Under the pieces are notes generated by a model that saw nothing but the letters and a program-made list of their open reading frames with translations, was not told the origin of the DNA and ran no database searches. Both the position numbers and the translations under genes were made by a program. This document shows, piece after piece, positions 25,553 to 46,795 of a stretch of 57,191 nucleotides of DNA. The stretch comes from a virus (lineage: Duplodnaviria > Caudoviricetes): the IMG/VR virus record IMGVR_UViG_3300044724_009593, positions 1 through 57,191 of that record, one strand, 5' to 3'. Position 1 is the first letter of the stretch. Every line of letters begins with the position of its first letter.

Positions 25553-26148
25553 CTAAATTTAGGTCCTGTAGCAAAAGCAAGCAAAATTTTCTTATTACCC
25601 TTTGTTATGGGTTCCACACTATATCGGATATATGATGGAAAAATTGTAACAGTACCTTTAGTTAGAAATTTCTTAGGTATAGGAACGGTGTTCATATAAC
25701 ATCCATATGCACCACCGTTGTAGTCAGTATAATTTTCTAATTCAATCAATATTGTTAATTTTTTATCAAAGGGCAAAGGATTAAACCACCAATCGCAATC
25801 TTCATGAAAATCCCACTCATCATTTAATCCAAAATGTAAAATGTTACATTGATAAATCTTATTAATATCTAGTAAAAAATTACTATCATTGGCGTCTTTA
25901 ACTAATTTCCATATCGGATCTATTATCCATGAATGGCTTATATCTTTATATTGATCAAAAATGTTGATAATATCCATTGAAGATCTATTATTATGATATC
26001 CAGTATATTTTTTTGTATATTTGTTAATTATTAAATCACAAATTTGCGGAGAAAAATAATTTTGATATTGTACCCAAGGAAATTTTTTGTAACTTATTAC
26101 ATGATGACTATTGTTTTTTCCAAAAATTGGTTCTTGTTGTTCAGTCAT
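25549..26148 (-). CDS. PKHD-type 2OG-Fe(II) oxygenase-like, distal His replaced by Tyr
   Basis: HED, KKLT, DYNGG, FPSYIRYSVEPITKG, GPKFR. Confidence 0.8.
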   Translation of the reverse strand: MTEQQEPIFGKNNSHHVISYKKFPWVQYQNYFSPQICDLIINKYTKKYTGYHNNRSSMDIINIFDQYKDISHSWIIDPIWKLVKDANDSNFLLDINKIYQCNILHFGLNDEWDFHEDCDWWFNPLPFDKKLTILIELENYTDYNGGAYGCYMNTVPIPKKFLTKGTVTIFPSYIRYSVEPITKGNKKILLAFATGPKFR

Positions 26149-27485: not shown

Positions 27486-28671
27486 TATTTTTCCTTAGTT
27501 TTATATTATTAGCTAGATATCTTTTTCCAAATGCGTTAAAAAACTTATTGTATCCATATTTACCATAGAATATAGGCCACCCTTTTTTTTCTAGTTTTTT
27601 TAAATACCAGTCTTGAAATTGGGTAACATATTGCCAATATGGAGAATCTCTCCTAGAGCTTATACAATAGGCACCTTCAACATACGAAATATGGTTTTCA
27701 ATCATATTTCTAAAACCAAAATTATATATTGATTGAAGCTTGTTACTTATTGTAAAATTATTATCTTTAAGTAATTTACAAAAAGATTCTAACATAAAAG
27801 ATATAATGGTTAATGTTGTGCTTTCCAATGGTTCTATAAATACCGCAGCGCCTCCTATTTTCAAACTGTTTCTATTCCACGGATTAGGATTATAACGCGA
27901 AGGAAAACGTACTTCGTATAAATTTTCTAAACCATACCATTTATACATTTCTTTCTTTGCTTCTTCAATTGAAAGATATTTGGTTGAAAACACTCGCCCT
28001 ACTCCTAGTTGATCTTGTAATGGAATCTCCCAACTCCATCCAACTGAATGTGCAAAAGTTTGTGTAAAATATCTTTTTTCTGAAAAAGGTATATGCCCTG
28101 CCAAAGCGTAATCATTAATAATAGCACGAGATGCTCTTATCCTAGAATCTTGCCCTCGGAAACCTCTGCAATCAACAACAAATTCATGTAGATTTGCAAG
28201 CAAAGAAGTATCTTTAACATGTTGATTAAAAATGTTTATATCTAATGTTTCACATTTTTGCAATAATAAGGGTTGTAATTTAGTGCTTTGTAAGTGATAT
28301 GCATAAAGAGCAGACGAAGGTAAGTTATCTTCGTTGTAAGTAAAAATTTTATTTTCACAATCGATATCAGATGTTAAATGTTCATGACAAAAGGGAAAGA
28401 TCCATTCGTGACCTTTATAATTCCAATTATTATGTTTTACATAAAATTTATAAGTTGCATTGCAATGGCTTATCCAGTCCTTGTTATCTCCAAAAACTGT
28501 ATCAAAATATTTTGACAAGTACGGTTGGGTAGATTCCCCAACGATCAAAGGTTGCAGATTAGGATCACGATAAATTTCAACCTCTAAATCTTTACAAACA
28601 GACTTTATAAAAGTTGCAGCCATTAATCCTGCTGTTCCAGAGCCAACAACCTTTATTTTTTTAATTTCCAT
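27478..28671 (-). CDS. Tryptophan-halogenase-like flavoprotein
   Basis: GSGTAG, VGEST, ATYK (catalytic Lys position), WSWEIP, FIEPLEST. Confidence 0.88.
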   Translation of the reverse strand: MEIKKIKVVGSGTAGLMAATFIKSVCKDLEVEIYRDPNLQPLIVGESTQPYLSKYFDTVFGDNKDWISHCNATYKFYVKHNNWNYKGHEWIFPFCHEHLTSDIDCENKIFTYNEDNLPSSALYAYHLQSTKLQPLLLQKCETLDINIFNQHVKDTSLLANLHEFVVDCRGFRGQDSRIRASRAIINDYALAGHIPFSEKRYFTQTFAHSVGWSWEIPLQDQLGVGRVFSTKYLSIEEAKKEMYKWYGLENLYEVRFPSRYNPNPWNRNSLKIGGAAVFIEPLESTTLTIISFMLESFCKLLKDNNFTISNKLQSIYNFGFRNMIENHISYVEGAYCISSRRDSPYWQYVTQFQDWYLKKLEKKGWPIFYGKYGYNKFFNAFGKRYLANNIKLRKNNG

Positions 28672-28672
28672 T

Positions 28673-28885
28673 TTAGATAGGATTGTTTATTTCATATACA
28701 GAAGAAAGATTTCCCTTACCATAAAGGTACACAATCTCTTTTCCTAAACTATATCCTCTTACAGGCGTTATCCTTGATTTATCAATCTTAAGTGGTAATT
28801 CTTTTAATTCCTGCTTTATGTCTTTTCTTTCTTCATTGCTTTTTGTTTTAATTAAAGTCCTTCTAAAAAGTATAAATGAGTTCAT
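28673..28885 (-). CDS. Small hypothetical protein
   Basis: 70 aa between the two halogenase-like genes. Confidence 0.55.
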   Translation of the reverse strand: MNSFILFRRTLIKTKSNEERKDIKQELKELPLKIDKSRITPVRGYSLGKEIVYLYGKGNLSSVYEINNPI

Positions 28886-30626
28886 ATTTCTTCAGATATT
28901 CTTTCTGTGTTAAAGTATTTGGTGATAAATTATTTTTTATAGCCAAAAAATAGCCTTGTAATGTTTTTAATTCATCTTTATCTATTGAGTCTTCAAGATT
29001 TTCGTTTCTAGTCTCAATATCGTAAAAATCAATACCATCCAAGACGAACAACCAATTTTGTAGGGTTAGTACAGATAAGTCAGGGTTATGAGGTTGATAA
29101 TGAACAGGACTTCTATACCATTGACTTAACCGTAAAGAGATACTTTGATCAGTATAATCGTGTAAATCATAAGCAGCATTAAAGTCTTCTTCTGATAAAA
29201 GTTCAACTAATTGTCTCTTATCAATCCAAAATTCTGTATCATCCTTATTAGTGATAAAGTGTAGAAAAATAAAGTTAGCCAGCTCATTGGTTGCATCGGC
29301 AACATCGTTGTTATAAGCTAATCGATGATTAAACATAATATCATCATCCAAATCTAGCATTTCCCAATCATCAAAACTCTCAACCTCTTCCAAGATGTCA
29401 ACCTGCTCATTATTATTATCTTTATCATTATCTAATGATTTTGCTTGGATTTGCTTAAAATTTTTAAGGACAGCAAAAAGTTGTGTTATCATAAATCCTA
29501 GGCTTGTTGCTTCTAATGGCTCTAAAAAACTTTGACTCAATCCAATAGCAATAACATTACCAAACCATGGTTGATCTAAATACCCAGCTTCGAATTTGAT
29601 TTCTTTTTCTGTTTCAATAGCATTACCAAATATAGACTCTAATTCTTTTTTTGCTTCGTGTACTGAACAATAATTATCATCAAAAACGTAACCGTATCCA
29701 GTTTTATGCTGTAATGGTATTTTCCAAAGCCATCCATATTTTAATGCAATTGCTTCTGTCCAAGCTTCATCAAGTGTTTCTGAAACAGAAAACGGTATTG
29801 CGGTATTTGTAGTCAGATAATGATAGGGTATATACACTGGGCTTACTAGAGAGTCTATAGAACTATATTTTTGCATTATAATTCTACTAAAGCCTGTACA
29901 ATCAAAAATAAAATCCACATCATGATATTGATATTCGTCTTCAACTCCTGTTATAATAGTGGTTGTATTGTAATCTATATCAACTTCTGTATCTGTAATG
30001 TGTTCTTCATAATATTTTACGCCAAGTTCGATACTTTTATTTTTAAAAAATTCACTTGTTTTATCTGCATCAAAATGTAAACTAATACCAGTTTGTTGAG
30101 AATAGTTTGTAAATTTTATAATTTCGTCAATATCTCTATCGGGAATTTGCTCCATAAACGGATTGACAAATTTTGAGTAATCTCCAGCAACGAAACATCC
30201 ATTTAAATAATCGCTCTCAAGTTGATTGTTTAATTTTATTTTTTCAGTCTCGGTTCCTTGGATTCCATCATCTGCATAACTCTCTAGTTCTTTTTCAGTC
30301 TTGTCAGGCCAATATATGTCTTCAATTTTTAATAAACTACCTGTAAAAGGATGCACATATTCAGATTTTTTTTGATTCCAGTTTTTAAATTTTACACCTA
30401 ATTTTACTGTAGCTCCAGTTTTCTGGAAAAACTCTTTCAAATCTATACCACATAGTTTGAAAAAATGCAAAAATATAGGCAATCCTCCTTCTCCTGTAAT
30501 AAGTTTGTCAACTTCTTTACTACAAAATAAAGAAATTTCTAAATTAGGAAAGTTTTTTTTCATCCAATATGCTGTAATCCAGCCACTCAATCCTCCGCCG
30601 GCAACGGCAATTTTTTTAATTTCCAT
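28863..30626 (-). CDS. Tryptophan-halogenase-like flavoprotein with acidic insertions
   Basis: GGGLSG, ATVKLG, FDCTGF, WLWKIP, FLEPLEATS. Confidence 0.9.
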   Translation of the reverse strand: MEIKKIAVAGGGLSGWITAYWMKKNFPNLEISLFCSKEVDKLITGEGGLPIFLHFFKLCGIDLKEFFQKTGATVKLGVKFKNWNQKKSEYVHPFTGSLLKIEDIYWPDKTEKELESYADDGIQGTETEKIKLNNQLESDYLNGCFVAGDYSKFVNPFMEQIPDRDIDEIIKFTNYSQQTGISLHFDADKTSEFFKNKSIELGVKYYEEHITDTEVDIDYNTTTIITGVEDEYQYHDVDFIFDCTGFSRIIMQKYSSIDSLVSPVYIPYHYLTTNTAIPFSVSETLDEAWTEAIALKYGWLWKIPLQHKTGYGYVFDDNYCSVHEAKKELESIFGNAIETEKEIKFEAGYLDQPWFGNVIAIGLSQSFLEPLEATSLGFMITQLFAVLKNFKQIQAKSLDNDKDNNNEQVDILEEVESFDDWEMLDLDDDIMFNHRLAYNNDVADATNELANFIFLHFITNKDDTEFWIDKRQLVELLSEEDFNAAYDLHDYTDQSISLRLSQWYRSPVHYQPHNPDLSVLTLQNWLFVLDGIDFYDIETRNENLEDSIDKDELKTLQGYFLAIKNNLSPNTLTQKEYLKKYELIYTF

Positions 30627-31254: not shown

Positions 31255-32919
31255 TTATCCTAAAAATAATTTTCTAAAAGCATAAAAATTTAAAGGAGCT
31301 CTAAAAAGATATTTTTTTCTTTCTCTTTCATAATAATAAGCCTTGGCAAAAGTATTTAGGGCAAGATTACTTTTTTTAAGTTTATTTTTTTGATACCTGA
31401 TTAACCATCTATCCCAAGCATTGGTAATACAATCAAAATCATCATTGTTTGAATTGAGTGCATTAACATTGAATGTAGATGCATTTAGATCAGGCAGTGT
31501 ATGTTCTGATTCAACAAATGTATCTTGATACTGTTGTAAAAAGTTGCTAGAAACACCTTGAAACATTTCTAAATTGATATTAGATATATCAGTTATAATC
31601 TTCTGGTAATGATGCTGTAAACTACCTAAAATTATACTTCCATAAAACGATGCATCTTCTAAACATTTAGTTAGTGTACTTGGTAATGATACCGCCATAG
31701 TGACAAGCACATTGATATCATGAAAAGAAAAAGGTTCAAGGGCATATTTTTCTAAAGAAAAAAGCAGATAATTACTATAAGGTAAATCTGAGCTATTAAT
31801 ATCGTTTGATGCAAAATTAGATATAATAGTTCTAGGCCGTAAAGTGTTGATATCTTTGTAAGGTAAATCTAGTGATGTTGTAGTTTTTTGGAAAAAAATA
31901 TTTTTCCTGCTAGTTAATTTAGGATCTGAAAATGTTATACAATCATTTCCAATAGTAACAGTAAATTTGTTTTTATTAAAATTTTCTTGCACATCCGGTT
32001 CAAAATAGATTCTATTACAAATATTGTTTGTATGAACAAAAGGTGGTAATAGGGCTAGTAAACTTTCATTATCTCCAAGAGTATCAATTACAAAATCAAT
32101 TTTTTGTCCATTAATGGTAATCGTTGTGAAATTGTCATCTTGTCCAAAATTGATTTCTTCGTTAGTATTAGTTGATGTTATTATATCTGTAAGATTATCG
32201 GTATAATAGTTTTCTAATGGTATTTTAGAGTCTAATAATAAATTTAAACCTTCGATATCATGATTCCAAACTAAATGATCTATTGAATTGTTTAAGTTAG
32301 TTCTTGTCTTGCCTGCTATAAATTGATTTGATAGCCTCTGTATAAGCTCTATTCCATTTAAATCATCAGTATCTATATCTGAATCATAATGTGGAAAATC
32401 GTCGCCTGTTTGTAAAAATAAAAATAAATTTTCTAATAAATCTAAATCATTGTCAATTAGATAATGACAATATGATTGCAATGCTTCTGCTATAGAGATT
32501 TCAGATATTTTTGCTAAATCGCCTAGAACAGTTATCGTGGGTTGATTTTGATTTACTGTATTTCGCAAATTATTGCCTACTATATTTTGCATGTATTCAA
32601 ACACTATATTTTCTATGCTACCTATGTTAGGTTCAGCAATCCTATACAGTGGTTTATCAATTAGATTTAGATATTCTATTGCTAAACCAAAGGTGGTAGT
32701 AGTTGCATTTAAATATTCTTGGATATTAATTCCAACTTGGCGAAGCAATTTAATGAAAGCTAACCCTGTTACAGGTTTTTCTAACCCTGTGTGAAAATGA
32801 TTTTGAAAAGGTTGATTATTGGTAAAAATTGTAATATTCCAAGAAGGATTTTCTTTTTTAATTAAAAGATAAGAAAGTTTGCTTTCGATAGTATTACCAA
32901 TTATCGCAATATGTTTCAT
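31255..32919 (-). CDS. Degenerate tryptophan-halogenase-like protein
   Basis: HIAIIGN, ATTTFGLAI, DFVIDTLG, ALEPF in halogenase order, but GxGxxG, catalytic Lys and WxWxIP are absent. Confidence 0.6.
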   Translation of the reverse strand: MKHIAIIGNTIESKLSYLLIKKENPSWNITIFTNNQPFQNHFHTGLEKPVTGLAFIKLLRQVGINIQEYLNATTTTFGLAIEYLNLIDKPLYRIAEPNIGSIENIVFEYMQNIVGNNLRNTVNQNQPTITVLGDLAKISEISIAEALQSYCHYLIDNDLDLLENLFLFLQTGDDFPHYDSDIDTDDLNGIELIQRLSNQFIAGKTRTNLNNSIDHLVWNHDIEGLNLLLDSKIPLENYYTDNLTDIITSTNTNEEINFGQDDNFTTITINGQKIDFVIDTLGDNESLLALLPPFVHTNNICNRIYFEPDVQENFNKNKFTVTIGNDCITFSDPKLTSRKNIFFQKTTTSLDLPYKDINTLRPRTIISNFASNDINSSDLPYSNYLLFSLEKYALEPFSFHDINVLVTMAVSLPSTLTKCLEDASFYGSIILGSLQHHYQKIITDISNINLEMFQGVSSNFLQQYQDTFVESEHTLPDLNASTFNVNALNSNNDDFDCITNAWDRWLIRYQKNKLKKSNLALNTFAKAYYYERERKKYLFRAPLNFYAFRKLFLG

Positions 32920-33461
32920 ATAAATTTATTTCCAGAACATGTAGCTGTAATATAACGTACAGGTTTGTCTGTTTTTACTTGCGAGATTGAATATCTAGTA
33001 AAGGCATCGATAATGACTGCACTACCTTTTTTCTTATAAAAAATATCATCTATTGGCTCACTATAACCGTCGCTGGTATGCAAATAAATTAAACCCCCAG
33101 TAGAATCATCTAATTTTTCATTAACATTTAGTATTGCAAATAACTTCCTATCAGTGAAATTATGATAAAAATGATTTAATTCTCTTCTTTCTGTGAGATA
33201 TCCACCTTTAGGAATATCTTCTGTTCTTATACTATCAGTAAGACTTATGTCATATCCCCAATTTAATTGATTACTTCTTACAAAATAATAGTAAATAGCG
33301 TCTTCAAGATCGGAAACATAGCCTCCTCCATAAAATTTTGTAGCTACACCTAGTTTATCTGTAGTGCTTCCTGGTTTGACTTCTGCATCTTCTAATATTT
33401 TTTCGGCTGTTTCGATATAAGCTGCAAAAGCACCTGGAAAAACTATATGCGATTTTATCAT
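32916..33461 (-). CDS. Degenerate PKHD-type oxygenase-like protein
   Basis: DRKLFAIL, GG, KKGSAVII..RYSI, GNKFI; lacks HxD and distal His. Confidence 0.6.
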   Translation of the reverse strand: MIKSHIVFPGAFAAYIETAEKILEDAEVKPGSTTDKLGVATKFYGGGYVSDLEDAIYYYFVRSNQLNWGYDISLTDSIRTEDIPKGGYLTERRELNHFYHNFTDRKLFAILNVNEKLDDSTGGLIYLHTSDGYSEPIDDIFYKKKGSAVIIDAFTRYSISQVKTDKPVRYITATCSGNKFI

Positions 33462-33464
33462 ATT

Positions 33465-34049
33465 TTACCTAAATTTTGGACCAATAATATGGCAATGTAA
33501 AAGTTGTCTTAGAGAAATTTTAGATGACTCAATTGAATAAGTTAAAAAACTAGGAAATATTAAAACCGATCCTTTTTTACCTGCAACAACTTGATTGTCT
33601 TGGTCGAAATGTATTTTTGCAACCGGAATATTAGGGTCATCGTTGTTAATAAAGGCAATAACAGACAATTTCCTATCATTTGGTTCGATTGAATATCGCA
33701 GTAAATCTTCATGCTTTCCGTATGAATAACCAGGCTTAAATGTTAGTAGAATCGGAGGCTTTTCAACTCCCCAAATATTATATCCAAAAAGTCTAGCATT
33801 TGCATCTAAAACATAATTCATTACCTTCGTTTCATAAAATTCTATTTCATCAGATAATTCTGTAATTTCGTAAGTAAAAAAATTATAACTTTTATCAATA
33901 TAATTTGTCGTAACTTCATTATCTTGATTTGTAAGTGTAATACTTGATCCTATTTGCTTTTCTAATATTTGATCACACTCAGCATCTGTAAAAACCCTGT
34001 CGTAAATTTTATAAATTGGTTTAACATTTTCAAAATTATTTAATATCAT
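33465..34049 (-). CDS. PKHD-type 2OG-Fe(II) oxygenase-like, distal His replaced by Tyr
   Basis: HED, DRKLSVI, KKGSVLIFPSFLTYSI, GPKFR. Confidence 0.8.
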   Translation of the reverse strand: MILNNFENVKPIYKIYDRVFTDAECDQILEKQIGSSITLTNQDNEVTTNYIDKSYNFFTYEITELSDEIEFYETKVMNYVLDANARLFGYNIWGVEKPPILLTFKPGYSYGKHEDLLRYSIEPNDRKLSVIAFINNDDPNIPVAKIHFDQDNQVVAGKKGSVLIFPSFLTYSIESSKISLRQLLHCHIIGPKFR

Positions 34050-34786
34050 AATTCACAAGAATTGTCATTGTTATTTTGTAGATCTTCTACTTTTTTGTTA
34101 AGTTGTTTTATTGACTCAAGTAATACTGGTATCATTTGTATATATGAAACAGCTTTATACTTTTCATTTTCAATGTTTACATATTCTATCATTTCAGGAA
34201 ATATATCTTCAATTTCATCTGCTAAAAAGCCTATCTGTTCTAAAGGTATGTCTTCGTCAATTTTACCTTCCATTAACTCAGTTACGTTTAATCCTTTATC
34301 ATTGTATTTAAACATAACACTTTGGATTTGGTTTATTTTATCGAGTACATTTGGTCCTAAACCTTCAATATCTGTCTTAAGTTTTTCGTCGCTCCAACAT
34401 TTACATTTGCAGACGCACTTGCACTTACATTTGCATTTACAGATGCATTTGCATTTGCAATTACATTTACATTTACATTTACATTTGCATTTACATTTGC
34501 ATTTACATTTGCATTTACAGGCACATTTGCATTTACAATTACAATTGGTGCTATACCTTACAGTAAGCGATCCTCCACTAGTGCCAGGAGTAGTTTCAAA
34601 TTGATAAACTTTCCTTGCAGTTGAACCAGTATATTTGCTGTCACCAGTTGCTACAAAACTTATACTGTTTAATGTAGTTCTACGACTATTTACAGTTCCT
34701 GGCAAAACTGCTGTATCGAAGCTTGCACCATCAGCTTTGGTTCCTGCTTCTAAGTCAACTGTTTTATTTCCAATTTTTATTGCCAT
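34046..34786 (-). CDS. Mini tail-fibre-like protein: short N-terminus, (Cys-X)24-Cys tract, C-terminal S74 intramolecular chaperone
   Basis: Residues 82-130 alternate Cys; followed by WSDEKLKTDIE..GFLADEIE..PEMI..VSYIQMIPVLLESIKQL coiled coil. Confidence 0.88.
   Translation of the reverse strand: MAIKIGNKTVDLEAGTKADGASFDTAVLPGTVNSRRTTLNSISFVATGDSKYTGSTARKVYQFETTPGTSGGSLTVRYSTNCNCKCKCACKCKCKCKCKCKCKCKCKCNCKCKCICKCKCKCKCVCKCKCWSDEKLKTDIEGLGPNVLDKINQIQSVMFKYNDKGLNVTELMEGKIDEDIPLEQIGFLADEIEDIFPEMIEYVNIENEKYKAVSYIQMIPVLLESIKQLNKKVEDLQNNNDNSCEL
34397..34543 (-). repeat. 6-bp coding repeat giving 25 Cys alternating with 19 Lys, 2 Asn, Ala, Ile, Val
   Basis: 147 nt = 49 codons; TGT/TGC and AAA/AAG both used. 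Confidence 0.95.
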
Positions 34787-34795
34787 TTATTTTTT

Positions 34796-35083
34796 TTATC
34801 CATTACAAATTACCAATTGGCAGCTGGCATTAATTACCATTGCAAAATTTACAGTGACACTAGTGCAATTAGTGCCAGCAAAAACCTTACACTTATTTAC
34901 TATATATCGTCCATAAGCAGCATCGTTCATGGTCCAACTATCAGTGTATGCAGTATAACCATCTGCTGCTGTAAAACTAGCAGGATAATTTTCTATAAAA
35001 AAAGCTAAATTATTTCCAAGACCGTAATCTACCGCTTCCCCATTACTATCGATTACCTCTGCATTACCTATAAAAAAAGCCAT
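34796..35083 (-). CDS. Small Cys-containing fibre-like protein (MAFFIGN start)
   Basis: 95 aa; AAGGA RBS; 4 Cys in C-terminal third. Confidence 0.7.
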   Translation of the reverse strand: MAFFIGNAEVIDSNGEAVDYGLGNNLAFFIENYPASFTAADGYTAYTDSWTMNDAAYGRYIVNKCKVFAGTNCTSVTVNFAMVINASCQLVICNG

Positions 35084-35096
35084 TAAATAAATCCTT

Positions 35097-35507
35097 TCAA
35101 GAACAGATCATACACACAGAAAAATTGTCTCCCCAATTAGGAAAAGCAACCCTATTAAGTGCTGCAACATTGTTTCGCCAAAATCCATATTCACCTTGAC
35201 ATTCACTATACGTACATGTAGCTGTGCGATTATAATTATAAATGATATAAATATCTCCGTTAAACGTTCCTTCGTCCCACGTGAAAGTACAAGTTACATT
35301 AGCAGAACAATTGGCTTGATTGCTCGTTGCTCTATAATACGCTATGCTACAGCATGTACCTAAGGCAGTGTTTGTGCCACTATTCACAATCACTCGGTTG
35401 ATTGCTTTTGAATTAAAGTACCAATCAGAAGTAACAAATGGTGCAATTGCATCCCACTGGAGGCCTTCTCCATCTATTACCACAAGATTATTAATTTTAA
35501 AAGCCAT
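35097..35507 (-). CDS. Small Cys-rich fibre-like protein (MAFKINN start; start reassigned to 35507)
   Basis: TAATG overlap with upstream stop; 8 Cys. Confidence 0.7.
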   Translation of the reverse strand: MAFKINNLVVIDGEGLQWDAIAPFVTSDWYFNSKAINRVIVNSGTNTALGTCCSIAYYRATSNQANCSANVTCTFTWDEGTFNGDIYIIYNYNRTATCTYSECQGEYGFWRNNVAALNRVAFPNWGDNFSVCMICS

Positions 35508-36595
35508 TACCCTACCTTTATAATTTTTGTTGCCCAATTACTGAAATGCTTAAAGCCTGCCTTTATTACCATTAGATCGTTTGGATCTAAGTCTAAAGCT
35601 CTAATCTTAAATTGTCCTTGACCATTTACTAAATTTATTTTACTTTTAGCTAAGTACCCATTATTGGTTTTAACATATAAGTCTGTATCGTAATCATATA
35701 GTGTAATACCATCTGATGCAGCAGTTGTAGATAAAGTAACATTTATTATGCCAACTTCATTAGGTTGCAACATACTAGGTCCGTCTAAAATAATGTGAGG
35801 AATAGGTAAAGTAGAATAATCCGTGAGCATTGTTGGTGCATGGGTCAGTGTATTTAAATCAACATCTCCAGAAACACCAAATCCGTGCATCATACTAATA
35901 TTACAATATAGGCTTGCAGCAGTAAAAGGCATAGTTTTTTCAAATAAAAATAAACTTAAAATCCTTTGTCGCCAAAATCTTGGTTTGCGTTTAACAATAT
36001 TGTTATCAACAGTTTCGATTTGTGGATCAGTCTGGAACTGGTTCATTCTATCGTGCCTATTCCAGTTTATTTTAGTGTTGTGAGTAAATGTAAATTGGTT
36101 ATATGGAATGTGCCAATTATGACCTGCAAAATTATAATCAAATGACCACAGCATACAATCTTTGTACTCTGGAATACATTCCTGATTAATACGTCTACCT
36201 TCATCTAAACTTTCTTGACTCAGAGCTGGTTCAGTAGCAAAATTATGTGTTGTATTCCTTGCAATAATACCTTCCGCAGCACGTTCAATTTGAGCTGCAC
36301 CTACAAATTTTAACCATTTCCCCTCTAACTCTGACGCTATTAAATCTCCAAGGACAATCGAATATACATCTTGGTCATCTTGAGAAAATTCTAATTCTAA
36401 CCGGTGTCTAGTTAGCAGTGGGTGATCACTAGAATCAATTAAGTTGAATGTATTAGCATCTACACCAGGAATATAATCTGGATCATTTACCAACACATCT
36501 TTAAACATCCTTACTGTTAGCATATCATCATCTATATCAACAATATAATGAATGGTGTCAAAAAATGTATATCTATACTGAAGTTGTTGTTCCAT
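35507..36595 (-). CDS. Hypothetical tail-associated protein with C-terminal Ig-like domain
   Basis: 362 aa; beta-rich C-terminus GYLAKSKINLVNGQGQFKIRALDL..KAGF; coupled to the fibre gene. Confidence 0.7.
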   Translation of the reverse strand: MEQQLQYRYTFFDTIHYIVDIDDDMLTVRMFKDVLVNDPDYIPGVDANTFNLIDSSDHPLLTRHRLELEFSQDDQDVYSIVLGDLIASELEGKWLKFVGAAQIERAAEGIIARNTTHNFATEPALSQESLDEGRRINQECIPEYKDCMLWSFDYNFAGHNWHIPYNQFTFTHNTKINWNRHDRMNQFQTDPQIETVDNNIVKRKPRFWRQRILSLFLFEKTMPFTAASLYCNISMMHGFGVSGDVDLNTLTHAPTMLTDYSTLPIPHIILDGPSMLQPNEVGIINVTLSTTAASDGITLYDYDTDLYVKTNNGYLAKSKINLVNGQGQFKIRALDLDPNDLMVIKAGFKHFSNWATKIIKVG

Positions 36596-39500
36596 TTGAA
36601 TTTCCTAATTTCTTTTCTAGTTCATCGATTTTTTTGTCCATTTGTTTTAACGCTGCAAGTAGAACAACTGTAATTTTTTGATATTCTAATTTTAAAAATT
36701 CAGTAGATCCTTTTCTTGCTACTAATTCAGGAAAATATTTTTCTACATCCTGCGCCAAAAGTCCTATTTCAATATTGTCCTTTTTATTAAATAAAACCTT
36801 TGCTTCATTATTCCATTTAAACTTAACAGGATTTACATTACGGACAAAATCCATACCATCTTCAATCTCCTCAAGTACATCTTTTAATCTTGCATCTGAA
36901 GTATATTCTGATGTGATATCACCTGTAGCATTAATATTACCAGTTGCTGCTTCAAAGTAGATTGTAGAATTTCCGGCACTATCTTTAACAATGATGTCAT
37001 TGTTAGTTGCATTATCAAAGTACAAACCAGATTGGTTTGTACTTCCCCCAACACTATAATCCGTATGTTGAATTGCATCTGTAAATAATTTTTGTACAGA
37101 TGGTTCAGCTTGTAGATCAATAGTAATGTTACCATCTAAATCACTTAGAGTATCAATATTGCTTCCGCCAATAAATTGTATTGTTTGCCCGCCTGAAACT
37201 GCCCTGACAGTTGAATCGTCTCCCGTAATCCTCCAAACGCCGCTTCCGTCACCTACCGCTGTATTTGCGAACGTGATTGTTTTGTTTACATTATCAAAGC
37301 TAATTCCAATTCCTGGACCAGGTATCCATGTTAATGGCTCATGTCCTGTTGCAACTAAATCAATTGCTCCTTCAGTTTCCCATGTCCTGAAAGATGCCAT
37401 GCTAATTTTTACATCACGATTTCCCAAATCAGTGATGCTAAATCCACTTTCTTCATCAAACTTTATGGTTTTATTATCATCTACAACAGATTGCACGGTA
37501 TCTACACTATCAACCGTGTTTACATCTATACCAGCAAAGATAGTCAGTGAGCCATTACTTGCACTCTGTGTATAGACGTTTGTATCGCCTATAATTGATA
37601 ATGTATCCCCTGACCCTAATTCCCGTAAGACTGCATCGGTTCCAGTAAAATTAAAACTAAATGTTACATTTGAAATAGCATTATCAATATACAATTGTGT
37701 GATAGAATCGCTTGAAAGTAATAAACTAGACGTTGTTAATGCTCTTCCTATTGTACCATATTCTGTTTGCGTTAATGTTAGTGATCCGTCTGCTGCTAAA
37801 AAATATTCTTCATTAACAATTAAATTTTGTTGTCCAAAGGCAATTTGTCCATTTACATAAACCTGCCCGTCATTTGATGTAGCAATATTTTCTTTTGCTA
37901 TTCCAATGTAATCATCTGCATTACTAGTCGTGGTTGTAAAAGATGTGTTATATACAACCACTTCGCCTGTACCAGTAGCTTGATTTTTGTAGGCTATATA
38001 AACTGCGTTATTTGTTGAATCAGTTGTGGCATGCGACTCATAATAAGGATTATCTACCAAATCTGGTGCATCTAGGTTCAGTGCAGTTTTAGAAGAATTC
38101 AGTGTGCTGCTTATTGCATCGCCATTACCATTGGATACATCTTTATATACAAACACAATGCGATTCGTGTTTCTTACAAATGTAAGTGTTAAATCGCTAA
38201 CATTACCGTTATGAAAATCATTGACTCCATTTGCGCCAAAACCATTACCTATTACATTGACAACGACATAGCTTCCTTTTGTGTTTGTCGTATCTCTATA
38301 GGCAATTACGAGTTTATTCTCTTGTTGAACAATTGTGAGGGCAATTGTATCTTTTGATATAGTTGGTTCAATCGCTAGTTTGTCACTTGTGTTAAGCGTT
38401 AATATATTACCCGATATGCTTGCTGATAATAAGAACACCGGGCCTGCTGTTAATTTATAAGCTAAGATCATTAAATTTAAACTACTGTCAAAATCTAAAG
38501 AAAGTTCGCTGACAGCAACATTATCTATATCTTGGGCAGTTCCATACGTAAACAAAAGGCTACCATCTACTTCTCCTAGAAATGCTTTTGCTTTATTACT
38601 GTCACCATTATCGATATAGGTGATAAAAATTCTATTTTGTATTGGATCAAATTTAACGACAATATTATTATTACCAGCAGTAGCATTAAAAACGACAGGA
38701 GATTTCATAACTACCGACAATCCTGCTACTTCAACGACACGAGCAGTACCATTATAAAAAACCACAAAGCAATTTCTATTTGGAAGAAAAATAGAACTGG
38801 TAATATATCCAGTAGAATCTAATTGGACAGCACTACCAGTATCAATAGTTCCGTCATCTTTGAATTCTGCAACAACGATCTTAGTTTCATTGTTAGTTAT
38901 ATCATTATAGGTAACTATAGCTTTTTTATTATCATTATATGCTATAAAAATATCTTGATGATTTACAGTATTTTCAAATACCTTTGCTGTATTAGTTGTT
39001 CCTGCTGTATTGCTGTATGTAGCATAAACCGCTTCGATTTCACCATCTGATCGTAATGCTACAGGTTGTCCTTCCCTAACAAAGGAGTTTGCTGTAAATG
39101 TCGGAGACAGATCTGTGATGCCATAACCTGCAAAAGTGTTAGGTAAATTTAAAATTTTATCAAACGATGTCTCAGGAAATAATTGTATGTGAGTAGCACT
39201 TAAAGCTCTACCTGCAACTCCAAACTCAGTAGGTGTGGTAGACAATTGTCCATCAGCAGTGACATAATAAACTTCATTTGGTGTTAAATTTACTTGGGCT
39301 CTATCAACTGATCCTCTGAGATTTACTTTACCTTCTTCTCCAATTGTTGCATCATCATCGGCAATTCCAATAAATTTGTTAGCGTTTCCTCCAGCTGTAA
39401 CCTCACTCGTAAAAATTGTTACTATGCCTTTGTATGTCAAATTCACATCAGCATAAGCAACTACAGTTTTATTTTGAGAAGCATCAAATACGCTATGGAC

Positions 39501-41822
39501 GTAATCTACATCGTTGTTAGCACCATTTGCGAAAAGGAATTCATCTGTGAAAGTCATTGTGTAATTGTCTACATCAACAGTAGCAATTTTGATCTTCCCA
39601 ATTGAATCAGCTGCATAAGAAATAACAAATCTAACTTTCTCTATGTCGTACACAACTGCAGTTTCAGTAACTGTTCCAGAATCAAATTCAAAAGGAGAAC
39701 CAAAAGTAATAAGGCTTCCACTTAAACTACCTAAGACTGCATAACCTTTTGATGAATTACCTCCATCAACATAAGTTAGCAAAAATCTATCTAAAGTGTC
39801 GCTCCAAGCTAAACTGATATTAGTTACAGGTCCGCTATTATTAGAAAATACATAGTGTGGCCCAACACTGAAACTTGTGCCAGTTGCATCTGTCCATATT
39901 AAATTAGCATAACCATATCCAGTGGCACCGTCTTGATACACTAGTAAAGAAAAATCATCAGCTACAACGCCATCGCCTGGTACATTACTAACACTCGTAA
40001 TATGAGACATTGTTTCAGCAGTGTTAATGCTCATACCCGACAAGTAACCCAATGTTACTGTATTTCCTATTACGGAAGCTAGTCTTACAAAACCTCTATT
40101 TGATTCCCCCCTATAGGAAATGACTAAAACACCTGCCAGTTCATCGTAAGTAATCGAATTATATATACCCTGGAAACCATTTGAAAATTCTATCGGAGTT
40201 CCGTAATTTATTATTTTTGTACTTGGATTATAAGTACCAACTACTACATATCCTTTATTAGAATTATTAACATCGGTGTACGCTATTGCAATTCTACTGC
40301 TTGGCATATATGTAACAGATACAAAATCAACTTCATCTTGGTAAAATAAAGCGCGGCCTCCGTAACTTGCCAAACCGTTACTAATCTCGCCTATCCGAGC
40401 GTAACCATAACCTGTTGTTGCTAGATTTTTATAAACTATTACATGCGTATTATCACTGTCATTATAAGCTGCAGCTAGATCGTATACTTCTTCACCAGTA
40501 TCGTTAGCAAAGTTAATAGGAACTGAGTTGCTACTAGGCGTTAAGATGTCACCTCCTACAAATTGTCCTGTAGGTGTTATCTTATTATTTTGATCCGTTA
40601 CAACTAACTCTCCTTTTGTTACAGCTTCACTAGCTTCATAGAATTTTTGATTATCACCAAGTGTTTCTTGTAAGCTATAGGTTCCGTCACCGTCTGATGT
40701 CAGAACTAAACCTTGAGTTGCGCTAGAACTTGTATCTACATCTGATAAACTAGTAAGGGAACCAGCTGTGAAGGTTTGGAAGGAAAACGATCCATCACCA
40801 TCCGAAGCTAATACTTGTCCTAGTGTTGATGTTGCATCAACGTCAATTAATCCTGTAAGTGTTGTACTGACACTTGCTGCCCATGTAAAAGTACCATTTC
40901 CATTTGCATATAGAATATTATCTTGGGAAGGAGAATTAGTAATTTCAAGTAGATCACTAACATTGCCGGTAAACGCATCAGTAATTCCGTATCCTGCTAT
41001 TGTAGTAGGTACGTTTAATAGACTCGTAAACTCTCCGTCGAAATGGGCTGCACTTACCGCAGCTATTTGGGCGTCAACATAAGTTTTAGTTGTATAGTTT
41101 ACATTATTATTTAGAACATCTATATTATCATTAGGTTGTACTGCTGATTCTGCTAAATTTCCTTGTGTATTTGTAGCTGCATCAGTTATTCCATATCCAG
41201 CTAGTGTAGTTGGAAGGTTTAGCAAACTGCTGAACTGAGCATCAAATGCAGTAGCAGCGAGTTGGTATGGTGATAAATCTGGACCTTCAATCGTTAAGTT
41301 GCCTTCACTATCACTATAAGTTGCTATATTTCTAATTCCAGAAAATTTAATACTTTCTGTTATAGGAACCGAAATTATTGTACTATCGTCAGCTGCTATC
41401 TTAATAGGAATACTAGAAAAATCAACGTCGATACGGATGTCGTTTAGGTTATCCCTTGTAAGATTTATTCCCCAACCTTCTTTCAGCTGTATGTTTGTAG
41501 GTAAGGATGTATCAACCGATGCTGCATAACTTGTAATAACATCTACACTATTGGCAACATTGCTCCTAACTTCTACTTTTGTATTATAGCCTAGTACTAA
41601 TTTTTCACCAGTTGACACCGCTCTCAAACTAGTTCGGTTAGGCAATAAGACGTTTTTTAGGTAATAGGCACCATTTATCACGATGTCAACTGTAATAATC
41701 AAATCTGTGACATTAGTCAAACTCAACCCTATTAAGGTATATCTTTCAAATGCGGTTGAGGAAAGGACTTCTGTTAACTCTGTGCCTATATTTTTTACTA
41801 CTCTATTACCAATTACTGCCAT
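36573..41822 (-). CDS. Long tail fibre/receptor-binding protein with duplicated propeller-like region and C-terminal S74 chaperone
   Basis: 1749 aa; PTTxAGYGITD repeats; two copies of a module ending FIGIA/YIGIA..NL..NExY..ADGxL..TE(F/Y)G..GRAL; TSDARLK..GLLAQDVEKYFPELV. Confidence 0.9.
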   Translation of the reverse strand: MAVIGNRVVKNIGTELTEVLSSTAFERYTLIGLSLTNVTDLIITVDIVINGAYYLKNVLLPNRTSLRAVSTGEKLVLGYNTKVEVRSNVANSVDVITSYAASVDTSLPTNIQLKEGWGINLTRDNLNDIRIDVDFSSIPIKIAADDSTIISVPITESIKFSGIRNIATYSDSEGNLTIEGPDLSPYQLAATAFDAQFSSLLNLPTTLAGYGITDAATNTQGNLAESAVQPNDNIDVLNNNVNYTTKTYVDAQIAAVSAAHFDGEFTSLLNVPTTIAGYGITDAFTGNVSDLLEITNSPSQDNILYANGNGTFTWAASVSTTLTGLIDVDATSTLGQVLASDGDGSFSFQTFTAGSLTSLSDVDTSSSATQGLVLTSDGDGTYSLQETLGDNQKFYEASEAVTKGELVVTDQNNKITPTGQFVGGDILTPSSNSVPINFANDTGEEVYDLAAAYNDSDNTHVIVYKNLATTGYGYARIGEISNGLASYGGRALFYQDEVDFVSVTYMPSSRIAIAYTDVNNSNKGYVVVGTYNPSTKIINYGTPIEFSNGFQGIYNSITYDELAGVLVISYRGESNRGFVRLASVIGNTVTLGYLSGMSINTAETMSHITSVSNVPGDGVVADDFSLLVYQDGATGYGYANLIWTDATGTSFSVGPHYVFSNNSGPVTNISLAWSDTLDRFLLTYVDGGNSSKGYAVLGSLSGSLITFGSPFEFDSGTVTETAVVYDIEKVRFVISYAADSIGKIKIATVDVDNYTMTFTDEFLFANGANNDVDYVHSVFDASQNKTVVAYADVNLTYKGIVTIFTSEVTAGGNANKFIGIADDDATIGEEGKVNLRGSVDRAQVNLTPNEVYYVTADGQLSTTPTEFGVAGRALSATHIQLFPETSFDKILNLPNTFAGYGITDLSPTFTANSFVREGQPVALRSDGEIEAVYATYSNTAGTTNTAKVFENTVNHQDIFIAYNDNKKAIVTYNDITNNETKIVVAEFKDDGTIDTGSAVQLDSTGYITSSIFLPNRNCFVVFYNGTARVVEVAGLSVVMKSPVVFNATAGNNNIVVKFDPIQNRIFITYIDNGDSNKAKAFLGEVDGSLLFTYGTAQDIDNVAVSELSLDFDSSLNLMILAYKLTAGPVFLLSASISGNILTLNTSDKLAIEPTISKDTIALTIVQQENKLVIAYRDTTNTKGSYVVVNVIGNGFGANGVNDFHNGNVSDLTLTFVRNTNRIVFVYKDVSNGNGDAISSTLNSSKTALNLDAPDLVDNPYYESHATTDSTNNAVYIAYKNQATGTGEVVVYNTSFTTTTSNADDYIGIAKENIATSNDGQVYVNGQIAFGQQNLIVNEEYFLAADGSLTLTQTEYGTIGRALTTSSLLLSSDSITQLYIDNAISNVTFSFNFTGTDAVLRELGSGDTLSIIGDTNVYTQSASNGSLTIFAGIDVNTVDSVDTVQSVVDDNKTIKFDEESGFSITDLGNRDVKISMASFRTWETEGAIDLVATGHEPLTWIPGPGIGISFDNVNKTITFANTAVGDGSGVWRITGDDSTVRAVSGGQTIQFIGGSNIDTLSDLDGNITIDLQAEPSVQKLFTDAIQHTDYSVGGSTNQSGLYFDNATNNDIIVKDSAGNSTIYFEAATGNINATGDITSEYTSDARLKDVLEEIEDGMDFVRNVNPVKFKWNNEAKVLFNKKDNIEIGLLAQDVEKYFPELVARKGSTEFLKLEYQKITVVLLAALKQMDKKIDELEKKLGNSNGTTTSV

Positions 41823-46514: not shown

Positions 46515-46795
46515 TATGCCCACGGTCTCCCAACAACTAATCCTCCTAGGTTTGCATTATCAATTACATCTTTTGAATTGTTACTAGCAGGATCATAAAC
46601 TGTAGGTAGTTGGTCTATATCTAATATATTCCTAGTTCTATACCAATTAGCTGCAGGATTATCAATTCCATCTGTTACCCAACTTCCATTTCCCTCTGTA
46701 ATAATTTGTCCTTTACGTTTAGCTTCGCTATAAGCAAGTTTTACATCTTGTCTTGCTCTTTTATTTGGTAAATGCGAGATTCCATTTGCTGACAT
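46514..46795 (-). CDS. Small conserved phage protein (MSANGIS start)
   Basis: TAATG-coupled on both sides; ends GLVVGRPWA. Confidence 0.7.
   Translation of the reverse strand: MSANGISHLPNKRARQDVKLAYSEAKRKGQIITEGNGSWVTDGIDNPAANWYRTRNILDIDQLPTVYDPASNNSKDVIDNANLGGLVVGRPWA

What the first reader, a model, noticed from the sequence alone, without database searches (positions are those of the whole stretch)
34046..34786. (Cys-X)24-Cys tract fused directly to an S74 autocleavage site
Seen: residues 82-130 are 25 strictly alternating Cys with 19 Lys, 2 Asn, Ala, Ile and Val, followed at once by W-S-D-E-K-L-K. The Cys positions never vary, while X and synonymous codons do, which points to protein-level selection. 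Established: S74 chaperones trimerise fibres and self-cleave at the Ser of the SDxxLK motif. Inference: the mature ~131-aa trimer would end in a 75-Cys tip. In a beta-strand all Cys face one side and all Lys the other, which suits a metal-thiolate core or processive enzymatic modification. The S74 domain would act like a self-removing follower peptide.
Basis: partly seen in the sequence, partly recalled or inferred. Interest (0 to 1): 0.92.

Follow-up and report, generated by a model that had tools for sequence, protein, structure and literature searches.

The report
Cysteine-repeat phage fibre tip, enzyme-linked
A small phage tail-fibre-like protein really does carry 25 strictly alternating cysteines just before a self-cleaving domain, and it appears to be an extreme member of a widespread, undescribed phage family whose cysteine-repeat tails are always encoded beside a dedicated radical-SAM enzyme.

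Summary
ORF 34046-34786 (-) encodes 246 aa: an 81-aa N-domain, (Cys-X)24-Cys at residues 82-130, W131, then a Peptidase_S74 domain starting at S132-D-E-K-L-K. The tract is real and under protein-level selection. About ten relatives from independent metagenomes (38-99% identity) keep it, with 12-29 Cys. TG of every Cys codon is invariant while third positions and X codons vary.

New here: the protein belongs to a widespread unannotated phage family with an 'MAYKVG..' N-terminus and a C-terminal Asn-(Cys-X)n-Cys. That family is genetically coupled to one radical-SAM/SPASM enzyme family (window copy 26145-27485). Of 78 viral loci holding this enzyme, 70 have a same-strand CxCxC run within 4 kb, and 3 more (this lineage) have one at 5.7-6.5 kb. 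The other 5 are cut at a contig end.

In most relatives the tract is the natural C-terminus. In others it is followed by S74 or a Hint domain, so cleavage would expose the same end.

Best reading (about 0.55): a trimeric fibre tip whose Cys tract is the substrate of the radical-SAM enzyme, with S74 acting as a traceless follower. The chemistry, metal binding and virion location are untested. The trimer model was confident only in S74.

The parts
34046..34786 (-). Whole gene: 246-aa fibre-like protein (N-domain, Cys-X tract, S74 domain)
34544..34786 (-). N-domain, residues 1-81, starting MAIKIGNKTVDLEAG. It is homologous to the N-part of small 'MAYKVG...N-CNCxCxC' phage proteins
   Evidence: hhalign probability 97.4%, E 9.5e-12 over 90 columns. 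No Pfam family at E<=1
34397..34543 (-). (Cys-X)24-Cys tract, residues 82-130
34391..34396 (-). W131 and S132. S132 is the presumed S74 nucleophile and cleavage point
   Evidence: Pfam profile position 1 aligns at residue 132. That cleavage occurs at this Ser is recalled knowledge of S74, not tested
34049..34393 (-). Peptidase_S74 intramolecular-chaperone domain, residues 132-246
   Evidence: PF13884 E 2.1e-11; 22 PHROG tail-fibre C-termini; trimer model
34796..35083 (-). 95-aa tandem paralogue, N-terminus MAFFIGNAEVIDSNGE, Cys-containing C-terminus
35097..35507 (-). About 135-aa tandem paralogue, N-terminus MAFKINNLVVIDGEGLQW, Cys-rich, ending ..CMICS
   Evidence: N-terminal motif as in A5
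35507..36595 (-). 362-aa protein whose C-terminal domain (..GFKHFSN..) recurs beside the enzyme in other phages
   Evidence: BLASTP E 9e-9 to RSP15 ORF047 and E 1e-6 to L223 8419-9186
36573..41822 (-). 1749-aa large fibre with its own C-terminal S74 domain
   Evidence: match to 36597-36902
33465..34049 (-). 194-aa 2OG-Fe(II)-oxygenase-like (DSBH) protein; its start overlaps the stop of the tract gene
   Evidence: PHROG 61 E 1.5e-5; Pfam 2OG-FeII_Oxy_3 E 0.024, below cut-off
32916..33461 (-). 181-aa paralogue of the previous protein
   Evidence: BLASTP E 0.001, 27% over 112 aa
31255..32919 (-). 554-aa protein with a halogenase-like N-terminus in which the glycine-rich motif is replaced
   Evidence: E 3e-6 over 109 aa; no Pfam or NCBIfam hit
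27478..30626 (-). Two tryptophan-halogenase genes (28863-30626 and 27478-28671)
   Evidence: PF04820 E 2.6e-69 and 1.7e-54
26145..27485 (-). 446-aa radical-SAM/SPASM enzyme, the presumed modifier of the tract
   Evidence: PF04055. Best NCBIfam matches are Cys-peptide maturases, all below their cut-offs. CxxxCxxC and Cx2Cx5Cx3C are invariant. Nearest solved structures are 8vpo, 5wgg and 4k36-39

Best explanation
The gene encodes a short trimeric tail-fibre-like protein of a marine myovirus distantly related to T4-like cyanophages.

Shown: it is a member of a widespread, unannotated phage protein family. That family has an N-terminal 'MA(Y/I/F)K(V/I)G..V' segment and a C-terminal Asn-(Cys-X)n-Cys tract, and its genes lie in tail-fibre modules next to one particular radical-SAM/SPASM enzyme family. 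In this lineage the tract has expanded from the usual 3-7 Cys to 12-29 Cys, X has become mostly Lys, and an S74 domain has been added behind it.

Inferred mechanism:
1. The S74 domain trimerises the chains and sets their register.
2. The radical-SAM/SPASM enzyme (26145-27485) modifies the tract cysteines. Thioether cross-links as in sacti- and ranthipeptides are the most likely chemistry; Cys-to-formylglycine is an alternative.
3. S74 cuts itself off at Ser132. The modified, Lys-coated tract is then the free C-terminal tip, the same end that most relatives have by simply stopping there.
4. In-frame slippage of the hexanucleotide repeat changes tip length between strains.

The tip probably serves in adsorption as a rigid polycationic needle. 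That last point is the weakest inference.
For: Family and selection. Relatives with the same architecture occur in 3 other IMG/VR records and 5 metagenome contigs, and as P0001-P0003, with 12-29 Cys. TG of the Cys codons is invariant in 234 of 234 units while other positions vary. Differences inside the tract between close pairs are synonymous only. hhalign of the N-part against small 'MAYKVG..NCNCxCxC' proteins gives probability 97.4%, E 9.5e-12.

Coupling to the enzyme. The enzyme is kept at 63-67% identity in all 3 other viral records of the lineage. A scan of IMG/VR with the enzyme alignment found 363 relatives; the best 80 loci were examined. 75 of the 80 have a CxCxC run in an open frame of 80 aa or more. 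Of the 78 loci where the enzyme frame was recognised, 70 have a same-strand run within 4 kb and 3 more have one at 5.7-6.5 kb. The 5 without have the enzyme 33-614 bp from the locus start. 107 of 118 runs follow Asn. That is 118 runs in 0.49 Mb near the enzyme against 29 runs in the remaining 1.80 Mb of strand, and 3 runs in 0.16 Mb of control loci read on both strands. The 78 enzymes form 46, 15 and 9 clusters at 90, 70 and 55% identity, and every 55% cluster has tract neighbours. In bacterial genome contigs the figure is 57 of 72. In the reverse direction, of 65 terminal NCNCNCNC tracts in open frames, 38 have the enzyme within the short fetched locus.

Cultured phages. Achromobacter phage JWF gp028, a fibre protein, has (C-X)5-C directly before a Hint domain, two genes upstream of the enzyme homologue (37% identity). 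Ralstonia phage RSP15 side tail fibre ORF048 ends ..TNCQCGN, three genes upstream of its homologue (36%).

Enzyme type. CxxxCxxC and the SPASM motif Cx2Cx5Cx3C are invariant. The nearest solved structures, matched over the full length, are 8vpo, 5wgg and the anaerobic sulfatase maturase 4k36-39. The best NCBIfam matches are Cys-peptide maturases.

S74. Pfam match. Trimer model: score 0.73 against a best control of 0.00 among 3 controls. The mark was reached by 20 of 30 proteins solved as pairs of one chain and by 1 of 23 solved as single chains. The runs agree in at least 48% of contacts and the partner pLDDT is at least 51. Confident contacts lie only in residues 132-240. The pass may reflect likeness to solved S74 trimers.

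Terminal-tract logic. The tract is the C-terminus in at least one protein of 52 of 78 loci. It is followed by S74 in L248 and L452 and by a Hint-like domain in L216 and JWF.

Length polymorphism. P0001 is 99% identical outside the tract but has 12 Cys. Contigs of runs X10 and X11 carry a joint that suggests a longer tract.
Against: No chemistry was observed; modification is inferred from gene neighbourhood alone.

In this lineage six genes separate the tract gene from the enzyme, whereas elsewhere the gap is 0.2-3 kb.

The tract here is Lys-rich whereas most relatives are Asn/Ala/Arg-rich, so the substrate chemistry may differ.

Nine bacterial loci with at least 1.7 kb of upstream sequence (eight of them 4.5 kb or more) have the enzyme but no CxCxC run of 3 or more Cys. 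Three viral loci with a 28-29% identical enzyme (L156-158) have no Cys-rich ORF within 10 kb.

T4-like cyanophages are known to carry arrays of dioxygenases and tryptophan halogenases with no assigned protein substrate (PMC2938197, passages read), so part of the local synteny may be lineage background.

The two adjacent DSBH-like proteins show no significant BLASTP similarity to the oxygenase-like proteins of other lineages. By eye their HxD motif is not conserved among orthologues (sequences).

A subclade lacks the S74 Ser/Lys motif.

The structure models gave no confident geometry for the tract. Virion incorporation is unknown.
Confidence: 0.55

Rival explanations
1. A purely structural cysteine core. 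In the trimer the Cys face inward and are held by bound metal ions (a thiolate analogue of the His-X-His iron sites recalled for the T4 gp37 needle) or by inter-chain disulfides formed after lysis. The radical-SAM enzyme serves another purpose.
For: The strict two-residue periodicity, with no Gly or Pro inside the tract and tolerant X positions, fits one buried and one exposed face. Cys-Lys-Cys composition recalls metallothioneins (recalled). Tract length can double without loss of the gene, as expected for a stackable rod.
Against: It does not explain why tract-bearing proteins and this enzyme family co-occur in 70-73 of 78 viral loci and 57 of 72 bacterial loci. There is no Pfam hit, metallothioneins included, for the tract at E<=1. 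No model placed the tract confidently.
Confidence: 0.2
2. A RiPP precursor rather than a virion part. The conserved N-part would be a long leader, the tract would be the core of a released modified peptide used against the host or competitors, and S74 would be only a processing device.
For: The layout of a conserved N-part, a Cys-rich C-terminal core and an adjacent radical-SAM/SPASM maturase is the classical precursor arrangement. The small relatives are only 83-107 aa. In L159 three or four maturase-like radical-SAM genes directly precede a 202-aa protein ending in (CTCNCNY)x4.
Against: The same tract ends bona fide long fibre proteins: JWF gp028, RSP15 ORF048, the 620-670-aa proteins of L213, L215 and L225, and the 430-aa L239 protein. 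The genes lie inside tail-fibre modules. S74 is a fibre trimerisation domain. I did not look systematically for a leader protease or an exporter.
Confidence: 0.1
3. An assembly artefact or a neutral hexanucleotide microsatellite that happens to be in frame.
For: The DNA is a tandem repeat. Short-word contigs break inside it, so the copy number could not be bridged. Alternating-Cys translations of simple repeats are common in viral contigs.
Against: Independent assemblies and metagenomes keep the tract between the same conserved flanks at 38-52% protein identity. TG is invariant against variable other positions. Changes within the tract are synonymous only. Contigs of independent runs enter the tract from both sides with no mismatch.
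Confidence: 0.02

Closest known systems
S74 intramolecular-chaperone fibres (endosialidase tailspikes, T5 L-shaped fibre; Pfam PF13884)
   Same: A C-terminal domain matches PF13884 from its first profile position at a Ser-Asp-x-x-Leu-Lys motif. It is predicted to trimerise. A second, large S74 fibre lies next door.
   Different: What precedes the cleavage site is not a known beta-helix or stalk sequence but 25 alternating Cys. The mature part is only about 131 aa. A sister clade has lost the Ser/Lys motif. The named examples are recalled; no PDB chain matched by sequence.
Radical-SAM/SPASM maturases of Cys-rich peptides (sactipeptide, ranthipeptide, SCIFF; anaerobic sulfatase maturase)
   Same: The linked enzyme has CxxxCxxC plus Cx2Cx5Cx3C. 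It matches 8vpo, 5wgg and 4k36-39 over its full length. Its best NCBIfam hits are PapB, CcpM, SCIFF and geopeptide maturases. Its presumed substrate is a C-terminal Cys-repeat.
   Different: All NCBIfam scores are far below the family cut-offs (for example 69.8 against 340 for PapB), so it is a separate family. The presumed substrates are tail-fibre-module proteins of 83 to about 670 aa, some with self-cleaving C-domains, not short exported peptides.
Achromobacter phage JWF gp028/gp030 and Ralstonia phage RSP15 ORF048/ORF045
   Same: A fibre protein with an Asn-(Cys-X)n tract lies two or three genes upstream of a 36-37% identical enzyme. RSP15 ORF047 shares the C-terminal domain of window 35507-36595.
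   Different: The tracts have only 6 and 2 Cys. JWF uses a Hint domain instead of S74, and RSP15 has no follower domain. Neither tract nor link is annotated in the records.
Metal-binding fibre needles (His-X-His iron sites of T4 gp37; recalled) and metallothioneins
   Same: A two-residue periodicity of a metal-ligand residue, and Cys-Lys-Cys composition.
   Different: The ligand would be thiolate. There is no sequence relationship (no Pfam hit). Metal binding is untested.

Membership tests
Peptidase S74 / C-terminal intramolecular chaperone domain | Sequence match to PF13884 above the gathering score | tested here: met
   44.4 bits against 22, E 2.1e-11, residues 132-199
Peptidase S74 / C-terminal intramolecular chaperone domain | Ser and Lys of the catalytic dyad at the start of the domain (S-D-x-x-x-K; the motif is recalled) | tested here: met
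   S132-D-E-K-L-K137. Absent in P0003, L004, L005, L148 and L149
Peptidase S74 / C-terminal intramolecular chaperone domain | Homotrimerisation of the domain | tested here: met
   Prediction only. Score 0.73 against a best control of 0.00 among 3 controls. The mark was reached by 20 of 30 solved pairs and by 1 of 23 single chains. Contact agreement at least 48%, pLDDT at least 51. May be from memory of solved S74 trimers
Peptidase S74 / C-terminal intramolecular chaperone domain | Autoproteolytic release of the domain | not testable with these tools
   Needs expression of wild type and Ser132Ala
Phage 'MAYKVG... Asn-(Cys-X)n-Cys' tail-module proteins (unnamed, defined here) | Homologous N-part plus a tract that begins after Asn | tested here: met
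   hhalign 97.4%, E 9.5e-12. The tract starts T-N-C-N-C in all members
Phage 'MAYKVG... Asn-(Cys-X)n-Cys' tail-module proteins (unnamed, defined here) | Same-strand radical-SAM/SPASM gene of family A4 nearby | tested here: met
   Present 6.6 kb downstream in the window and in all 3 other viral records of the lineage. More distant than the usual 4 kb or less
Phage 'MAYKVG... Asn-(Cys-X)n-Cys' tail-module proteins (unnamed, defined here) | Tract is the extreme C-terminus | tested here: not met
   115 residues (S74) follow the tract. The feature would be met only after cleavage at S132. L248 and L452 have the same S74 arrangement
Radical-SAM RiPP systems (sacti-/ranthipeptides) | Radical-SAM enzyme with a SPASM auxiliary-cluster motif beside a Cys-rich substrate gene | tested here: met
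Radical-SAM RiPP systems (sacti-/ranthipeptides) | Thioether (or other) modification of the substrate cysteines | not testable with these tools
   Needs mass spectrometry
Radical-SAM RiPP systems (sacti-/ranthipeptides) | Membership of the enzyme in a curated maturase family | tested here: not met
   All NCBIfam scores are below their cut-offs (best 73.2 against 400 and 69.8 against 340)
Radical-SAM RiPP systems (sacti-/ranthipeptides) | Short exported precursor with a leader protease or transporter | not tested
   Not searched for systematically
Metallothionein | Match to a metallothionein family model | tested here: not met
   No Pfam family at E<=1 for residues 81-131

The most novel reading that the evidence does not exclude
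Phages post-translationally armour the tips of their tail fibres with RiPP-type chemistry. A dedicated radical-SAM/SPASM enzyme cross-links a C-terminal Asn-(Cys-X)n-Cys tract of a structural protein. Self-cleaving S74 or Hint domains act as traceless follower domains that hold the chains while the tract is modified. In this lineage the tract has grown, by in-frame repeat slippage, into a 12-29-rung covalent ladder coated with lysines. The co-encoded tryptophan halogenases may further decorate the Trp that becomes the C-terminal residue.
Probability: 0.35. Interest if true: 0.92.

Novelty: new variant of a known kind. Interest (0 to 1): 0.85.

Why it matters
If the link holds, radical-SAM peptide chemistry, so far known from small secreted natural products, would also be used on virion proteins at the receptor-binding end of tail fibres. 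That would open a new layer of host-range determination and of phage particle stability. It would also give a natural example of large self-removing follower domains (S74, Hint) in a RiPP-like pathway.

The system is widespread: 363 viral and 147 bacterial-genome stretches encode the enzyme. It is present in cultured phages, and no Pfam or PHROG family matched the tract proteins, so it can be tested directly.

The 25-rung Cys-Lys tract itself is an unusual biomaterial motif. No paper in the held library mentions it.

Tried and rejected
**Searches and models that led nowhere**

- DNA search of cultured phages with 33000-37000 found no match. A protein search found only S74 domains.
- The 181-aa and 554-aa neighbours have no match in cultured phages.
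- The AlphaFold2 monomer was poor: mean pLDDT 52, and 30-46 over residues 1-137. Foldseek of that model against the PDB gave nothing at E<=0.001.
- PDB sequence searches with the family profile and with the S74 part alone found nothing meaningful.
- The ESM Atlas gave scores of 0.80 or less, which are leads only.
- The trimer job gave no confident contact in the tract or the N-domain, so the geometry of the tract stays open.
- The profile search of 1.84 billion representatives gave 7280 hits at E<=0.001, nearly all S74 only. One full-length representative (P0002) reached E<=1e-30.

**Scans with limits**

- The NCNCKCKC pattern scan found 19 stretches, of which only 3 are family members, the same three records as before.
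- Alignment A3 (L159 protein plus P0015, P0104, P0150) brought back only 8 contigs with an identical protein.

**Reads**

- Logan contigs could not bridge the tract. The depth peaks in the tract bins come from unrelated repeats.

**Pairwise comparisons**

- BLASTP of the window's DSBH-like proteins against RSP15 ORF046 and L223 9195-9836 was not significant. JWF gp029 against RSP15 ORF047 was also not significant.

**Literature**

- Seven accepted searches found no paper on Cys-X repeat fibres or on a radical-SAM link to tail fibres.
- I read passages only of PMC2938197, PMC12801897 and PMC7159879.
- Subscription journals and supplements were not visible, so prior description elsewhere cannot be excluded.

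**Hypotheses considered and rejected**

- Assembly artefact.
- Neutral microsatellite.
- Membership in the metallothioneins.

Full report
**1. What is there**

The window is an IMG/VR virus record of 57,191 bases with 34% G+C, estimated about 20% complete. Nearly all long ORFs lie on the - strand. A virion structural protein (44934-46523) is 41% identical to those of Synechococcus phages S-T4, S-B43 and S-B05. The virus is therefore a distant relative of T4-like cyanomyoviruses. Its host is unknown.

ORF 34046-34786 (-) encodes 246 aa. Residues 82-130 are 25 Cys alternating with 19 Lys, 2 Asn, Ala, Ile and Val. Then come W131 and S132-D-E-K-L-K. Pfam Peptidase_S74 matches from its first profile position at residue 132 (E 2.1e-11, above the cut-off). 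Twenty-two PHROG tail-fibre families match the same C-terminal part.

**2. Is the tract real and selected?**

The DNA is a degenerate hexamer repeat, so artefact and neutral microsatellite had to be excluded.

Relatives with the same three-part architecture exist in several places:
- proteins P0001-P0003;
- three other IMG/VR records;
- five metagenome contigs.

They are 38-99% identical and carry 12 to 29 Cys. In 1.84 billion representative proteins, only one full-length representative of the family appears. The family is rare.

In 9 DNA-distinct tracts the TG of every Cys codon is invariant (234 of 234 units). The third position is split T 134 and C 100, and the X codon is changed in about a fifth of units. 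Exceptions exist outside that count: one Trp at a Cys position in P0002, and register shifts at the tract end in L005 and L149.

Between the close pair L004 and L148 there are 19 synonymous and 4 non-synonymous codon differences. The six that lie in the tract are all synonymous.

P0001 is 99% identical outside the tract but has only 12 Cys. Contigs of runs X10 and X11 carry a joint that suggests a longer form. Length therefore varies by in-frame slippage. Contigs of runs X6 and X8 enter the tract from both flanks without a mismatch but break within it, so the number 25 itself is not independently bridged.

**3. Structure predictions**

The monomer model was poor over the N-domain and the tract.

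The trimer job passed:
- score 0.73 against a best control of 0.00 among 3 controls;
- the mark was reached by 20 of 30 solved one-chain pairs and by 1 of 23 single chains;
- the runs agree in at least 48% of contacts, and pLDDT is at least 51.

All confident contacts lie in residues 132-240, and the pass may come from likeness to solved S74 trimers. It supports S74 trimerisation. It says nothing about the tract.

**4. The surroundings**

Upstream on the coding strand lie:
- a 1749-aa fibre with its own S74 domain;
- a 362-aa protein;
- two small Cys-containing paralogues that share the N-terminal motif (MAFKINNLVVIDGEG, MAFFIGNAEVIDSNG).

Downstream, tightly packed on the same strand, lie:
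- two DSBH (2OG-oxygenase-like) paralogues;
- a degenerate halogenase-like protein;
- a 208-aa unknown;
- two tryptophan halogenases;
- a 446-aa radical-SAM enzyme.

This order is kept in every related locus long enough to show it.

Arrays of dioxygenases and halogenases are a known, unexplained feature of cyanomyoviruses (PMC2938197, passages read). Synteny alone was therefore weak evidence.

**5. The decisive comparison**

The radical-SAM enzyme has CxxxCxxC and a SPASM-type Cx2Cx5Cx3C. It matches 8vpo, 5wgg and the anaerobic sulfatase maturase 4k36-39 over its full length. Its best NCBIfam hits, all far below their cut-offs, are maturases of Cys-rich peptides.

Its closest relatives in cultured phages sit inside tail-fibre modules:
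- In Achromobacter phage JWF the fibre protein gp028 contains ..N-CNCDCNCNCSC directly followed by a Hint domain, two genes before the enzyme.
- In Ralstonia phage RSP15 the side tail fibre ORF048 ends ..TNCQCGN, three genes before the enzyme. ORF047 shares the C-terminal domain of the window's 362-aa protein.

I then scanned IMG/VR with an alignment of the enzyme. There were 363 relatives, and the best 80 loci were examined:
- 75 of the 80 have a CxCxC run in an open frame of 80 aa or more.
- Of the 78 loci in which the enzyme frame was recognised, 70 have a same-strand run within 4 kb.
- The three loci of this lineage have it at 5.7-6.5 kb.
- The five without any have the enzyme 33-614 bp from the locus start.
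- 107 of 118 runs follow Asn.
- The density is 118 runs in 0.49 Mb near the enzyme, against 29 runs in the remaining 1.80 Mb of strand and 3 runs in 0.16 Mb of control loci read on both strands.
- The enzymes form 9 clusters at 55% identity, and all have tract neighbours.

In bacterial genome contigs (probably prophages of Variovorax, Limnohabitans, Bradyrhizobium and others, by record title), 57 of 72 loci show the same. Nine of the 15 without have ample upstream sequence.

In the reverse direction, a capped scan for NCNCNCNC gave 80 tracts in open frames, of which 65 are terminal. Of those 65, 38 have the enzyme inside the short fetched locus.

**6. What the relatives look like**

The typical partner is a protein of 83-107 aa, often in three tandem copies. 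It starts MAYKVGTTIVIDD.G or MS.QLGNG..TFGDGT and ends ..N-CNCNCRC or ..N-CNCACNC at the stop codon. Longer fibre proteins end the same way (L213, L215, L225, L239).

A profile comparison links the window family's N-part to these proteins (97.4%, E 9.5e-12). No Pfam or PHROG family matches them.

The modules also hold oxygenase-like proteins (PHROG 81, Pfam 2OG-FeII_Oxy_5) and a protein with the shared C-terminal domain.

In a minority the tract is followed by something else:
- S74 (L248, L452);
- a Hint-like domain (L216, JWF);
- a domain starting SKIICAKL, of unknown nature, in 14 viral loci.

**7. Reading**

Shown: the window protein is an extreme member of this family, and the family is genetically coupled to the enzyme.

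Inferred: the tract is the enzyme's substrate, and the follower domains (S74 here) are removed so that the modified tract is the free C-terminal tip, as it is by default in most relatives.

The kind of modification is open. From recalled knowledge of the enzyme class, the options are thioether cross-links or Cys-to-formylglycine. Also open are whether metals or disulfides take part, whether the neighbouring DSBH-like proteins and halogenases act on the same protein, and what the tip binds.

Points against:
- the six-gene distance in this lineage;
- the Lys-rich rather than Asn-rich tract;
- loci with the enzyme but no tract;
- the subclade without the Ser/Lys motif;
- the absence of any chemical or virion data.

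**8. Comparison and novelty**

The S74 part is an ordinary member of a known family. The enzyme belongs to a known superfamily but to no curated family. Tracts of 12-29 alternating Cys, and the coupling of a radical-SAM/SPASM enzyme to tail-fibre proteins with self-cleaving follower domains, were not found in the held literature. Subscription papers and supplements were not visible.

I rate it a new variant of known kinds (S74 fibres; radical-SAM systems acting on Cys-rich peptides), with high interest.

Noticed in passing
L159 1042-6350 (same protein in L167-L174): A separate viral lineage (8 contigs with an identical protein) has four tandem radical-SAM genes, three of them PapB-like. They are followed by a 130-aa ORF and a 202-aa protein ending in (C-T-C-N-C-N-Y)x4-S with no S74 domain. 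That protein aligns with the mature part of the small S74 proteins P0015, P0104 and P0150 and stops exactly at their cleavage-site Ser.
   Followed up: partly
P0015, P0104, P0150, P0055, P0089, P0024: Other small S74 proteins carry CxC-rich segments (for example CPCNCNW repeats, CxCNxx repeats, CGxCG repeats) directly before Y/C-SDxxLK. Of 120 S74 hits with 40 or more residues before the motif, 8 have 4 or more Cys in those 40 residues, and 2 of the 8 are this family. The sample is biased by the Cys columns of the query profile.
   Followed up: partly
L217, L219, L227, L236-L238, L240, L242, L245-L247, L250, L251, L253: In 14 enzyme-bearing viral loci the tract (..SYN-CNCACNC) is followed by a conserved domain starting SKI(I/V)CAKL(Y/F)..G(M/L)M, of unknown nature. 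It may be a third kind of follower domain.
   Followed up: no
window 31255-32919 (-): The first 105 residues of this 554-aa protein resemble the N-terminus of the neighbouring tryptophan halogenase (E 3e-6). The glycine-rich nucleotide-binding motif (AVAGGGLSG in the halogenase) reads AIIGNTIES here, so it looks like a degenerate, possibly non-catalytic halogenase relative. It is conserved in all related loci.
   Followed up: partly
window 27478-30626 (-) and residue W131 (34394-34396): Two intact tryptophan halogenase genes lie in the same gene string. The residue that would become the C-terminus after S74 cleavage is a Trp in 5 of the 6 distinct SDxxLK-clade proteins (Leu in L146). Whether the halogenases act on it was not tested.
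   Followed up: no
window 21332-22480 (-): A second radical-SAM gene matches the 'twitch domain-containing radical SAM protein' subfamily above its cut-off (212.6 against 170 bits). Another 2OG-Fe(II) oxygenase (24244-24906, PF13640 E 3.6e-14) lies between the two radical-SAM genes.
   Followed up: no
window 44099-44310: An 84-bp tandem repeat (2.5 copies, 97% matches; also readable as 42 bp x 5) lies inside ORF 43429-44661, which has weak tail-fibre PHROG matches.
   Followed up: no
window 33465-34049 and 32916-33461, with orthologues in L003-L005: The two DSBH-like proteins next to the tract gene are paralogues (E 0.001). By eye the HxD motif reads HED in the window, HTR in L004, HSR in L005 and HEN in L003, and the distal His is not conserved. 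They may not be active oxygenases in this lineage.
   Followed up: partly
window 2535-4832, 5252-6949, 14898-15827: A ribonucleotide reductase large subunit with an ATP cone, a pectate-lyase-like tailspike with an Mtd_N N-terminus, and a PRPP synthetase.
   Followed up: no
L255-L334: The enzyme plus tract module occurs in genome contigs titled Variovorax, Limnohabitans, Bradyrhizobium, Ramlibacter, Rhodoplanes, Polynucleobacter and Paraburkholderia, presumably in prophages. These are possible culturable models.
   Followed up: partly
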